NCBI RefSeq assembly: GCF_056712565.1
Contig: NZ_CM160072.1
Strand: one strand, 5' to 3'
DNA length: 64,000 nt
The position numbers were made by a program. This document shows, piece by piece, positions 24,501 to 27,500 of this stretch. Numbering within the stretch: the first letter of the stretch is position 1; each line of letters opens with the position of its first letter.

Positions 24501-27500
24501 GACAATCAATCCAAAGCGCAGACGTGTCACGTTCAGTCCCAGCGAACGGGCTTCGTCGTCGGAAAGCGTGAGTAAATTCATGCGCCAGCGGAGAAAAAAC
24601 AGGGGCAAGGAGCCTATGAGAATGATCGGTGCAGCATAGCAGAGATCGCGTAAGGTCACGGTGGACAGCCCCCCCAGCAACCAGAAGGTAATTGACGGTA
24701 ACTGGGTATAAGGATCGGCCAGCGTTTTTATTAGCGATATCCCCGCTCCGCACAACGTTCCTAACGCAATGCCTACCAGCACCAGGGTTAAGATCGGATC
24801 GTGGCGGGTCACCCGACGCGTAATCAACCAGACGCCCGCGACCACCATCAGCCCGCCGCAAAATGCGTACAGCTGGATGTAAACAATGGATAATCCCCAC
24901 AGGATTGCCGCGCAGGCACCAAGTCCGGCACCGGCGGAGACGCCTAAAATATCCGGTGACACTAAGGGATTACGGAACATTCCCTGATAGGTGGTTCCGG
25001 CCCCTGCCAGCGCCGCGCCCAGAAACAGCGCAGCAAGAATACGCGGCACGCGGATTTGCCAGAAGACAATTTGTTCCTGCACAGGAACATTTTCTTGACG
25101 AAGAATGAGCGCCAGCAGTTGCTGCATATCGAGATGATAAGCCCCACTTACGGCGGCAAAAGTGATACTGATAGCTGCCAGCAGCAAAATACATCCGTTT
25201 ACGGTTCTCATTAGCTCGCCACCAATTTTTGATAGTCGGCGTCACTGAGTGAACAATGCCAGAACAGTTGGGCGTAATGCTGTATGTCACTTTTAAACTG
25301 GCGATTGATGGCGGGATCCAGCCAGGCGTGAAGTCTGCGTAATCCCAGAAGACGGTTGATTCCCGGCGGGGCATCCAGCCAGCCAAAGGGCAGGCCACTT
25401 AAAAATAAGATGCGTTGTTCCGCAACCGCTTTCACGCCCTGCCAGAGAGGATCACGACGAATAAAATCTGCAGTAACGGCCTCCTGAACCAGAATAATAT
25501 CCGGCTGCCAGCGCAGGAGATTTTCCATGGAAACCTGTGTCAGACCGTGGCGATCGGCTATTTGCGCGACGTTGTGCAAACCTAATAATTCCGCCGCCTC
25601 GGTATGCAACGAACCCTGTAAGCCCGTTTCCAGCCCTCGAGGACCGCGCGCAGCATAAAAGCTGAGATTAGCGGCGGGTGAGGTGGCGAATGCCTGAGCT
25701 TCACCAACGAAGCGGCTGGCGAGATTGGCTTGTTCTGCGGCGCGGTGCTCTTCGCCTAACGTTTTGCCAAGCGTTGTTAACTGTTCTGCTGATTGTTCCA
25801 GTTTCCCGTTAAGCAATAACCAGGGTATTTGTGTCTGTTCGCTAACCTGCCGTGCCTGGGAGATCCAGGTTTCATCCGTATTGCCGCAATCAACGACCAA
25901 ATCGGGATGTAACGCCATAAGCCCTTCCAGCGAGAGTGTGCTGGCGCGCCCGGCGAGTCGTCCCAGCCTGGGGAACTGGCGAATGTGCTCTGGCAATGGA
26001 ATTAATGCCTGACGGGCAAAATCAAAAGAGGAAAAACCGACCATTTTTTCTGGCGCGACAGCCAGCAATAGTAAATCGGCGGGCGCGCCTGCGCTGACGA
26101 TGCGTGTAATGTTTTGGGCTTCGGGAAGCGTCCGTGAGGCCCAGAATTTGACTGATTGTGCGAAGGACGGCAGATGATGCAGGAACAATGTCGACGCAAG
26201 AATCTGTGTAAACCTCCGTCTGGTTAGTGACATAAGTAATATCCTGATAATTAAAACCGCTATATACTTATACATATAGCGAAAAAGATCATGTTTGATG
26301 TCAAAATTTGTCTAAAGAGACAGAATGATTTGCTTGTTTCTTAAATAACACTTTGTTCCACAAGAAAATTGTCAGGGAGAATGGGGAGTGGGGGAAAATA
26401 TAAATAGAGGTGTAATGATTAACAAGTTGATAAAATAAAATTAAAATCTTCTCTAATAAAAGAAAATAAAGGCATAGACCGTAGAAAGAGTGGTATTTGG
26501 TATTTCGTGATGAAGAAAGAGCAATGCCAATTTTATGCACGTAATGGCATTGCTCGATATACAGTAAAGTTAAGGCGTAGGTTCCGCCTCTTTTTGTTTT
26601 AGCGGCTGTGTTGTTGATTCACTGAGTGGACGCGTCGCCGGAACATTGTCACACGGTTGCTCTTTCGGGCAGATCAAATCCAGCATTTTCAGCGTCACGC
26701 CATTGGTACAGCCAAAGCCATCCTGTAATGGATATTCGCCACCGCCGCCCCCTGTTCCGGTGGTGCTGACATCATATTTTTCCACCAGCTTTTTCTCCCG
26801 GTCATAGGTGTGCTGAACATTGGTCAGGAAGTGCCAGCTAATGTCCATCGCTACCTCTTTTTGCCCGTAGTTTTGTAATCCTTCAGTCGCGACCCACTGC
26901 AACGGTGCCCAGCCGTTTGGCGCATCCCATTGTTGCCCACTTTTCACCGACGTGGTGTTCAGGCCGCCGGGTTGCAGCAGATGTGTTTTCGTCGCCGTCG
27001 CCATTTTGCTGGCGCGATCTTTCGCTGCCGCATTGACGTACAGCGGGAACAGGGCGGCCGCGGTTAACTGATTGCGCACTTTATGACTTTTCAGGTCGTA
27101 ATCGGCATACCAGCCTTGTTGATCGTTCCACAGGTATTTTTCGATCCCTTTTTGACGGGCATTTGCCAGCGTTTCGTACTGGTTTGCCATCGCGTTATCT
27201 CCGATAGCTTTGCTGGCGCGGGCGAGGATTTTTTCCATTTTGAACATCAAGCTGTTCAGATCGACCGGTACGATGCTGGTGGTGCGTAAGGTGTTTAACT
27301 GCTGCGGATTGTCCATCCAGCGCGAGCTGAAATCCCAGCCAGACGCAGCGGCAGAGCGCAGGTCGCGGTAAATTTCAGTGGCAGGTCGATTCGGATTGCT
27401 TTTGGCAGTGGCAATATCTTCCACCCATGACTCTGGTCGTGGCGTATCGCGATCGTCCCAGTAGCGGTTGAGAAGGGTACCATCCTGAAGTTTTACAACG

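What the first reader, a model, noticed from the sequence alone, without database searches (positions are those of the whole stretch)
25211..26233. Binding protein of the accessory transporter appears to carry a twin-arginine signal
With the start placed at the Met preceded by an AGGA Shine-Dalgarno sequence, the N-terminus reads MSLTRRRFTQILASTLFLHHLPSFAQS. TRRRF fits the Tat consensus (S/T-R-R-x-F-L-K) followed by a hydrophobic stretch and an AxA-like cleavage site. Tat export of a binding protein would imply it folds, possibly with a cofactor or ligand, in the cytoplasm before export.
Basis: inference. Interest (0 to 1): 0.35.

Follow-up and report, generated by a model that had tools for sequence, protein, structure and literature searches.

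The report
Twin-arginine signal on a binding protein
The binding protein of an accessory TonB-dependent uptake operon found in about 40% of complete E. coli genomes carries a conserved twin-arginine (Tat-type) export signal, and the operon, long annotated as iron uptake, has a conserved ModE (molybdate regulator) operator in front of it.

Summary
The CDS 25211..26233 (-) starts MSLTRRRFTQILASTLFLHHLPSFA|QS behind an AGGA Shine-Dalgarno sequence, and RefSeq uses the same start. TRRRFTQ fits S/T-R-R-x-F-L-K and the TatP regular expression. Among 91 distinct N-termini of relatives, 85 keep RR, mostly at residues 5-6, as [TS]RRx[FL][LAI]Q. The rest of the signal and the Arg codons vary. The hydrophobic core is weak.

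The upstream ATG at 26275 is not the start. It lies inside a conserved operator, and six related loci have no in-frame upstream start at all.

Caveats: export by Tat is not shown. The TIGR01409 and Pfam Tat models miss this signal. A published TatP list for a strain with the identical peptide omits it. The E. coli copy has no basic residue in its c-region.

FhuD is listed as a Tat substrate, and P. aeruginosa FepB (signal validated by reporter assay) has no predicted cofactor.

Beyond the finding: a ModE box (26256..26283) precedes the gene and is conserved in six related loci. No Fur box is present. ModD, ModE-like and MOSC genes are linked, and MolA is the closest characterised relative. The "prrA-modD-yc73-fepC iron" cluster is therefore probably molybdenum-related.

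Verdict: a new member of a known kind, of modest interest.

The parts
25211..26233 (-). Substrate-binding protein gene (340 aa, Peripla_BP_2 / class III binding-protein fold); first gene of the operon
   Evidence: ORF list. PGAP CDS WP_000060148.1 has the same coordinates. Pfam PF01497 E=7.8e-17. AlphaFold model with pLDDT 91. Foldseek best matches are 4pag and MolA 3psa.
26159..26233 (-). Predicted signal peptide, residues 1-25 (MSLTRRRFTQILASTLFLHHLPSFA), with predicted cleavage S-F-A|Q-S
   Evidence: Read from the sequence. Kyte-Doolittle maximum over 11 residues is 1.60 and over 13 residues 1.08. Twenty-five Tat signals average 1.80/1.58 and 17 Sec signals 2.43/2.21. The cleavage site is assigned by inspection only.
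26204..26224 (-). Twin-arginine motif T-R-R-R-F-T-Q (codons ACC AGA CGG AGG TTT ACA CAG)
   Evidence: Matches the TatP regular expression. Matrix score 6.3 bits, above all 123 null RR sites. The family motif is [TS]RRx[FL][LAI]Q, with RR in 85 of 91 distinct N-termini.
26242..26245 (-). Shine-Dalgarno AGGA, 8 nt before the ATG at 26233
   Evidence: AGGA sits at the same place in Citrobacter and Raoultella.
26256..26283 (-). ModE-type operator TTCGCTATATG-TATAAG-TATATAGCGGT (17 of 20 specified positions of ATCGNTATATA-N6-TATATANCGAT; core CGCTATAT-N8-ATATAGCG is a perfect palindrome); it contains the upstream in-frame ATG at 26275..26273
   Evidence: Consensus quoted in PMC545781. One exact core match in the window, none in 100 shuffles. 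Conserved upstream of the binding-protein gene in six related loci with 0-3 mismatches; in 125 kb of fetched loci the only other hits lie at the receptor gene.
24231..25211 (-). FecCD-family (type II ABC importer) permease; its start overlaps the binding-protein stop (TAATG)
   Evidence: Pfam PF01032 E=4e-89; PGAP annotation.
23476..24234 (-). ABC transporter ATP-binding protein (PGAP start)
   Evidence: Pfam PF00005; PGAP annotation.
22654..23466 (-). Class I SAM-dependent methyltransferase ('yc73'), no signal peptide
   Evidence: The gene is kept in all related operons examined.
21803..22657 (-). ModD (quinolinate-phosphoribosyltransferase-like)
   Evidence: TIGR01334 E=8e-152, above its cut-off.
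19807..21777 (-). TonB-dependent outer-membrane receptor ('prrA'), PGAP start
   Evidence: Pfam Plug plus TonB_dep_Rec_b-barrel; PGAP annotation.

Best explanation
The gene encodes the periplasmic binding protein of an accessory TonB-dependent type II ABC importer. Its first 25 residues are a genuine twin-arginine signal peptide. The n-region is MSLT-RR-RF, the h-region ILASTLFLHHLP is weakly hydrophobic, and the cleavage site is SFA|Q. The precursor would therefore be recognised by TatBC and exported already folded, then cleaved by signal peptidase I. Some leakage through Sec is possible.

No cofactor is implied. Tat routing in this clade most likely reflects folding behaviour of the protein, as in FhuD and P. 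aeruginosa FepB.

Shown here: the motif, the start codon, conservation of the motif, the fold, and the operon context. Inferred: recognition by Tat and the cleavage site.

Separately, the operon is probably repressed by molybdate-bound ModE and serves molybdenum (or tungsten) acquisition rather than iron uptake.
For: Start codon:
- AGGA Shine-Dalgarno sequence and PGAP agreement.
- In six related loci the ATG of M-x-x-[ST]-R-R is the first in-frame start after a stop codon.

Motif:
- It fits the TatP expression.
- It scores within the range of 25 published E. coli Tat signals and above all 123 null RR sites.
- It resembles SufI closely: MSLSRRQFIQ against MSLTRRRFTQ.

Conservation:
- 85 of 91 distinct N-termini keep RR, 72 of them at residues 5-6.
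- Of the six exceptions, two are gene-call artefacts, one is KR, and three are Sec-like.
- The Arg codons differ between genera: AGA CGG, CGC CGC, CGT CGT, CGT AGA, CGT CGA, AGA CGT. The h-region also diverges. Selection therefore acts on the arginine pair itself.
- More distant relatives show canonical NRRSFLKS, SRRHFIKT and NRRQFLKS.
- 51 of 85 have K/R in the h/c region, which resembles a Sec-avoidance signal.

Other points:
- Hydrophobicity lies in the Tat range.
- Same-fold precedents exist: FhuD and FepB.
- The sister MolA clade uses plain Sec signals, so the RR motif is a clade-specific trait and not a general feature of the fold.
Against: - There are no export data.
- TIGR01409 and Pfam TAT_signal do not match, even at E<=10.
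- The TatP-based list for ExPEC PCN033, which has the identical peptide, omits the protein. The authors may have curated that list to known substrates.
- The signal is short (25 aa, against a mean of 33).
- Positions +4/+5 are T-Q rather than L-K.
- The E. coli copy has no basic c-region residue.
- Its best 8-residue hydrophobic stretch (2.38) could engage Sec.
- The Sec signal of the receptor in the same operon is about as weakly hydrophobic, so hydrophobicity alone does not discriminate.
Confidence: 0.65

Rival explanations
1. It is an ordinary Sec (SPI) signal peptide. The arginines are simply the positive n-region, and the likeness to the Tat consensus has no functional consequence.
For: The curated Tat HMMs do not hit. 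The protein is absent from a published TatP list for a strain with the identical peptide. The length of 25 aa and the hydrophobic ILASTLFL core (8-residue maximum 2.38) fit Sec signals. There is no c-region K/R in the E. coli copy. Many proteins that fit a Tat expression are in fact Sec substrates; in the B. subtilis example of PMC1182353 only one of 69 candidates proved Tat-dependent.
Against: Sec n-regions tolerate K/R exchange and shifts of position. Here RR is kept in 85 of 91 distinct N-termini, with a single KR variant, despite changes of codon. The flanking [TS] and [FL] are conserved as well. Sec-type relatives in the same superfamily use K-rich n-regions and more hydrophobic cores.
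Confidence: 0.25
2. Translation starts at the upstream ATG (26275). The N-terminus would then be MYKYIAVLIIRILLMSLTRRRF..., and the RR pair would sit behind a first hydrophobic stretch, giving a membrane anchor or atypical signal.
For: The ATG at 26275 is in frame and is the first start after a stop codon.
Against: It has no Shine-Dalgarno sequence. It lies inside the conserved ModE-type palindrome. Citrobacter, Raoultella, Serratia and three more distant loci have an in-frame stop codon and no alternative start upstream. PGAP and all full-length orthologues start at MxL[TS]RR.
Confidence: 0.02
3. One reading: the protein needs Tat because it binds a cofactor or ligand in the cytoplasm before export. 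That ligand could, for instance, be made by the co-encoded ModD and methyltransferase.
For: Two cytoplasmic enzymes of unknown role, ModD and a SAM-dependent methyltransferase, are kept in the operon across genera. Tat is the route used by cofactor-containing proteins (established knowledge).
Against: The model is an ordinary two-lobe class III binding protein, and no cofactor-binding domain is detected. The same-fold binding protein FepB, whose Tat signal was validated, has no predicted cofactor. Nothing in the data points to cytoplasmic loading.
Confidence: 0.05

Closest known systems
E. coli FhuD and P. aeruginosa FepB (PA4159): siderophore-binding proteins of the same fold that carry Tat signal peptides
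   Same: All are Peripla_BP_2 / class III binding proteins serving FecCD-type importers downstream of TonB-dependent receptors. Each has RR in a short n-region (FhuD ISRRRLLT; FepB PTRRRSAL). No cofactor is predicted for FepB.
   Different: Sequence similarity is low: the profile scores FhuD at only about 5e-7. The ligand class is probably different, because this operon has a ModE box and no Fur box. The FepB signal was validated with an amidase reporter, whereas this one is untested.
E. coli SufI (FtsP) signal peptide, the standard Tat-specific model signal
   Same: The N-termini are almost superimposable: MSLSRRQFIQASGIALCAGAVPLKASA against MSLTRRRFTQILASTLFLHHLPSFA. Both have RR at residues 5-6, Q at +5, and a length of 25-27 aa.
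   Different: SufI is hit by TIGR01409 (21.5 bits) and this signal is not. SufI has a basic residue (K) in its c-region and this signal has none. The mature proteins are unrelated.
Haemophilus influenzae MolA (HI1472) of the MolBC-A / ModD cluster, a low-affinity molybdate/tungstate importer
   Same: MolA is the closest functionally characterised relative by sequence profile (E=3.7e-23) and by fold (Foldseek rank 3). Both serve a type II FecCD-type importer and both are genetically linked to modD (PMC3928620; PMC4031551 abstract).
   Different: Identity is only about 21%. The conserved Y193/R196 motif of this clade is not kept in MolA. MolA-clade proteins have classical Sec signals such as MKFNRLFVAALFGIFSTSALA. 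This operon adds a TonB-dependent receptor and a methyltransferase.
prrA-modD-yc73-fepC cluster of uropathogenic E. coli CFT073 and O157:H7 (Ye and Xu 2001, as cited in PMC1890555 and PMC12928451)
   Same: It is the same locus: the region between ymgE and treA, GR 9 in PMC12928451. The binding protein and permease are the two 'putative transport proteins' downstream of fepC.
   Different: The literature available here treats the cluster as a proposed iron-uptake system and mentions neither a Tat signal nor ModE control. The present analysis finds a conserved ModE operator and no Fur box.

Membership tests
Twin-arginine (Tat) signal peptide | Consecutive arginines within S/T-R-R-x-F-L-K at the boundary of the n- and h-regions | tested here: met
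   The motif is T-R-R-R-F-T-Q. It matches RR.[FGAVML][LITMVF] and scores 6.3 bits, within the range of 25 known signals.
Twin-arginine (Tat) signal peptide | An h-region less hydrophobic than in Sec signals, followed by an AxA-type cleavage site | tested here: met
   Kyte-Doolittle maxima over 11 and 13 residues are 1.60 and 1.08. Tat signals average 1.80/1.58 and Sec signals 2.43/2.21. S-F-A|Q was assigned by inspection. One Sec control, the receptor's own signal, is equally weak, so the test is not decisive.
Twin-arginine (Tat) signal peptide | Evolutionary conservation of the RR pair, as opposed to interchangeable K/R in Sec n-regions | tested here: met
   RR is present in 85 of 91 distinct N-termini, with one KR variant. 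Arg codons vary between genera.
Twin-arginine (Tat) signal peptide | Recognition by the curated Tat signal models (TIGR01409, Pfam PF10518) | tested here: not met
   No hit at E<=10. The SufI control is hit. The FhuD control is also missed, so the models are specific but insensitive.
Twin-arginine (Tat) signal peptide | Basic residue in the c-region (Sec-avoidance signal; frequent but not obligatory) | tested here: not met
   The E. coli copy has HHLPSFA with no K/R. Such a residue is present in 51 of 85 relatives, for example LLLRHLPALA in Citrobacter and Salmonella.
Twin-arginine (Tat) signal peptide | Export that depends on TatABC and on the RR pair | not testable with these tools
   This needs a reporter fusion or cell fractionation in tat+ and tat-deleted strains.
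Class III / cluster A substrate-binding proteins (Pfam Peripla_BP_2) | Two alpha/beta lobes joined by a long rigid helix, and a match to PF01497 | tested here: met
   PF01497 scores 61.9 bits against a cut-off of 27.5. In the AlphaFold model (pLDDT 91) helix 162-183 links the lobes. Foldseek probability is 1.00 to many such proteins.
MolA-type molybdate/tungstate binding protein (H. influenzae HI1472) | Orthology to MolA and binding of the oxyanion | tested here: inconclusive
   MolA is the closest characterised relative but is distant (21% identity), and true MolA orthologues form a separate clade with Sec signals. Ligand binding cannot be tested here.
ModE regulon (molybdate-responsive repression) | An operator matching ATCGNTATATA-N6-TATATANCGAT in the promoter region | tested here: met
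   17 of 20 specified positions match, with a perfect palindromic core at 26256..26283. The box is conserved with 0-3 mismatches in six related loci; in 125 kb the only other hits lie at the receptor gene. ModE binding itself was not tested.
Fur-regulated iron/siderophore uptake operon (the current annotation) | A Fur box in the promoter region | tested here: not met
   The best matches are 10-13 of 19 positions, no better than shuffled sequence, in all seven upstream regions.

The most novel reading that the evidence does not exclude
The 'prrA-modD-yc73-fepC iron-uptake' cluster is carried by about 40% of complete E. coli genomes and was first reported on a pathogenicity island of uropathogenic CFT073. 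It may in fact be a ModE-repressed, TonB-dependent molybdenum (or tungsten) acquisition system. Its binding protein would then be an unrecognised Tat substrate that is absent from the K-12-based substrate lists. In the boldest version, the protein is exported folded together with a small ligand made by ModD and the methyltransferase, and acts as a periplasmic carrier for the metal.
Probability: 0.4. Interest if true: 0.6.

Novelty: new member of a known kind. Interest (0 to 1): 0.4.

Why it matters
If it is exported by Tat, this protein adds a strain-variable substrate to the E. coli Tat substrate set, which has been defined mainly on K-12. It would also be a third example of a cofactor-free class III binding protein routed through Tat. 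That bears on why some binding proteins avoid Sec.

The side result matters more for annotation. A gene cluster used as an 'iron-uptake' marker in ExPEC and O157 comparative genomics has a conserved ModE operator, no Fur box, and linked ModD, ModE-like and MOSC genes. It is therefore probably part of molybdenum homeostasis, and it may represent a TonB-dependent route for molybdenum across the outer membrane.

Tried and rejected
- Pfam TAT_signal and NCBIfam TIGR01409 on the N-terminus gave no hit. The SufI control hit and the FhuD control did not.
- An Rfam scan of the 5' region (26100..26700) at E<=1 found nothing, so no riboswitch is evident.
- The sigma-70 scan found no convincing promoter next to the operator. 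It flagged the palindrome plus its T-run as 'terminator-like', with 11 pairs of which only 3 are G-C. I read the palindrome as an operator because of its match to the ModE consensus and its conservation.
- A Fur-box scan of seven upstream regions found nothing above chance.
- I tested whether K-12 ycgY is a remnant of this operon. It shares no homology.
- Three papers could not be read because they are not held: Studholme and Pau 2003, Tirado-Lee 2011, and Ye and Xu 2001.
- TatP, SignalP, PRED-TAT and TATFIND are not available in this environment. I substituted a position matrix and hydrophobicity measures. The 17 Sec control signals include 15 written from memory.

Full report
WHAT IS THERE. 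The window comes from an ExPEC-type E. coli; 25100..26500 is 100% identical to APEC and B2 chromosomes. On the minus strand, between ymgE and treA, lies a six-gene operon:
- binding protein, 26233..25211
- FecCD-family permease, 25211..24231
- ABC ATPase, 24234..23476
- SAM-dependent methyltransferase, 23466..22654
- ModD, 22657..21803
- TonB-dependent receptor, 21777..19807

These assignments rest. The stretch 25100..26500 (binding-protein gene plus the permease start) is found in 2148 of 5426 complete E. coli genomes. K-12 has an unrelated gene, ycgY, at this site. The literature calls the locus the prrA-modD-yc73-fepC cluster and describes it as proposed to be involved in iron uptake (PMC1890555, PMC12928451).

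THE OBSERVATION. PGAP annotates the same start. The rival start at 26275 can be set aside for three reasons.
- It has no Shine-Dalgarno sequence.
- It lies inside a conserved palindromic operator.
- In Citrobacter, Raoultella, Serratia and three more distant loci, the ATG that gives M-x-x-[ST]-R-R is the first in-frame start after a stop codon. Only E. coli has an upstream in-frame ATG.

IS IT A TAT SIGNAL? Evidence in favour:
- TRRRFTQ fits S/T-R-R-x-F-L-K and the default TatP expression RR.[FGAVML][LITMVF] (PMC1182353).
- A position matrix built from the 25 E. coli Tat signals tabulated in PMC7549933 scores the site at 6.3 bits. The leave-one-out mean of the known signals is 8.3, sd 5.8. No other RR site near an ORF N-terminus in the window exceeds 3.6 bits (123 sites).
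- The peptide closely resembles SufI's (MSLSRRQFIQ...).
- The hydrophobic core is weak. The Kyte-Doolittle maximum over 11 residues is 1.60, against 1.80 for Tat and 2.43 for Sec controls. This is compatible with Tat but not decisive, because the Sec signal of the operon's own receptor is about as weak.

The strongest evidence is comparative. Among 91 distinct N-termini of relatives scoring at least 200 bits, 85 have RR, and 72 have it at residues 5-6. The consensus is [TS]RRx[FL][LAI]Q. Of the six exceptions, two are gene-call artefacts, one has KR, and three are Sec-like. The h-region diverges freely. The Arg codons also differ between genera: AGA CGG, CGC CGC, CGT CGT, CGT AGA, CGT CGA and AGA CGT. 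Selection therefore acts on the arginine pair itself. More distant members show textbook motifs such as NRRSFLKS and SRRHFIKT, and 51 of 85 have a basic residue in the h/c region. Below about 160 bits, Sec and lipoprotein signals dominate. The MolA clade has plain Sec signals. The RR motif is thus a clade-specific trait.

EVIDENCE AGAINST, AND LIMITS.
- TIGR01409 and Pfam TAT_signal do not hit this N-terminus. SufI is hit, but FhuD is also missed, so the models are insensitive.
- ExPEC PCN033 carries this operon with an identical signal peptide. The TatP 1.0 list of 25 substrates published for that strain nevertheless omits it. That list contains only proteins known from K-12, so it may have been curated.
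- The E. coli copy has no basic residue in its c-region, and its 8-residue core (2.38) could engage Sec.
- No export experiment exists.

I put genuine Tat targeting at about 0.65 and an incidental Sec signal at about 0.25.

Tat export implies folding before transport, but it does not imply a cofactor. FhuD is a listed Tat substrate (PMC8262268, PMC7549933). The signal of P. aeruginosa FepB was validated experimentally, and its entry reads 'cofactor: none predicted' (PMC6085387). The AlphaFold model (pLDDT 91) is an ordinary two-lobe class III binding protein.

WHAT THE SYSTEM PROBABLY DOES. From 23 to 50 nt upstream of the start lies TTCGCTATATG-TATAAG-TATATAGCGGT. It matches 17 of the 20 specified positions of the E. 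coli ModE consensus ATCGNTATATA-N6-TATATANCGAT (PMC545781). Its core CGCTATAT-N8-ATATAGCG is a perfect palindrome, and no such match occurs in 100 shuffles of the window.

A box of this type sits 19 to 78 nt upstream of the binding-protein gene in these loci:
- Citrobacter, 2 mismatches
- Raoultella, 0 mismatches
- Serratia, 2 mismatches
- two more distant loci, 3 and 2 mismatches
- another E. coli, 3 mismatches

Extra boxes lie at the start of the receptor gene in two loci. There is no other hit in the 125 kb scanned. No Fur box exceeds chance in any upstream region.

One distant operon carries an HTH plus TOBE (ModE-like) gene where ModD sits in E. coli. MOSC-domain genes follow the receptor gene in Raoultella and Serratia. 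The closest functionally characterised relative of the binding protein is H. influenzae MolA, which belongs to the MolBC-A/ModD molybdate-tungstate importer. Together these points make ModE control and a molybdenum-related substrate more likely than iron. The actual ligand is unknown: it could be the free oxyanion or a metal chelate, given the TonB-dependent receptor. The roles of ModD and the methyltransferase are also unknown.

VERDICT. The more useful outcome is that this 'iron' cluster probably belongs to the ModE regulon.

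Noticed in passing
window 26256..26283 (-); L002 8949..8976; L003 7941..7968; L004 7955..7982; L006 7923..7950; L008 7924..7951: A conserved ModE-type operator lies directly upstream of the binding-protein gene, and no Fur box is present. The operon annotated as 'iron ABC transporter' and known as prrA-modD-yc73-fepC is probably regulated by molybdate.
   Followed up: yes
L008 11622..12437; L003 14470..15114; L004 14556..15197: In a distant homologous operon, an HTH_1 plus TOBE (ModE-like) gene replaces ModD. In Raoultella and Serratia a MOSC-domain gene follows the receptor gene. These are further links to molybdenum.
   Followed up: partly
window 26213..26221 (-): The three arginines are encoded by AGA CGG AGG at codons 5-7. 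All three codons are rare in E. coli (my own knowledge of codon usage). This may reflect foreign origin or slow early translation. Other genera use CGC or CGT here.
   Followed up: partly
window 26257..26282 (-) and 26573..26589 (+): The ModE palindrome followed by TTTTAATTAT is also scored as a terminator-like hairpin (11 pairs, only 3 G-C). A second, G+C-richer terminator-like hairpin sits just past the treA stop codon.
   Followed up: no
L009 26472..27452 (E. coli PCN033); proteins P0012, P0019, P0023, P0059: The permease gene is a pseudogene with an internal stop in PCN033. Many truncated or partial binding-protein records come from E. coli and Shigella. The operon seems to be decaying in some lineages.
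   Followed up: partly
L010 5161..5601 (K-12 MG1655) versus window 19831..26569: K-12 carries the unrelated gene ycgY between ymgE and treA, where this strain has the six-gene operon. Citrobacter and Raoultella also have the operon next to treA, so the site seems to be old.
   Followed up: partly
window 25211, 24231..24234, 22654..22657: Consecutive genes overlap by 1 or 4 nt: binding protein with permease (TAATG), permease with ATPase, and methyltransferase with ModD. This suggests translational coupling along the operon.
   Followed up: no
proteins P0311, P0312, P0315-P0317, P0355, P0360: Some E. coli, Salmonella, Klebsiella and Pantoea genomes encode a separate, true MolA-like protein, about 59% identical to the C-terminal 182 residues of H. 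influenzae MolA, with a Sec-type signal peptide. It is a different system from the one in the window.
   Followed up: no
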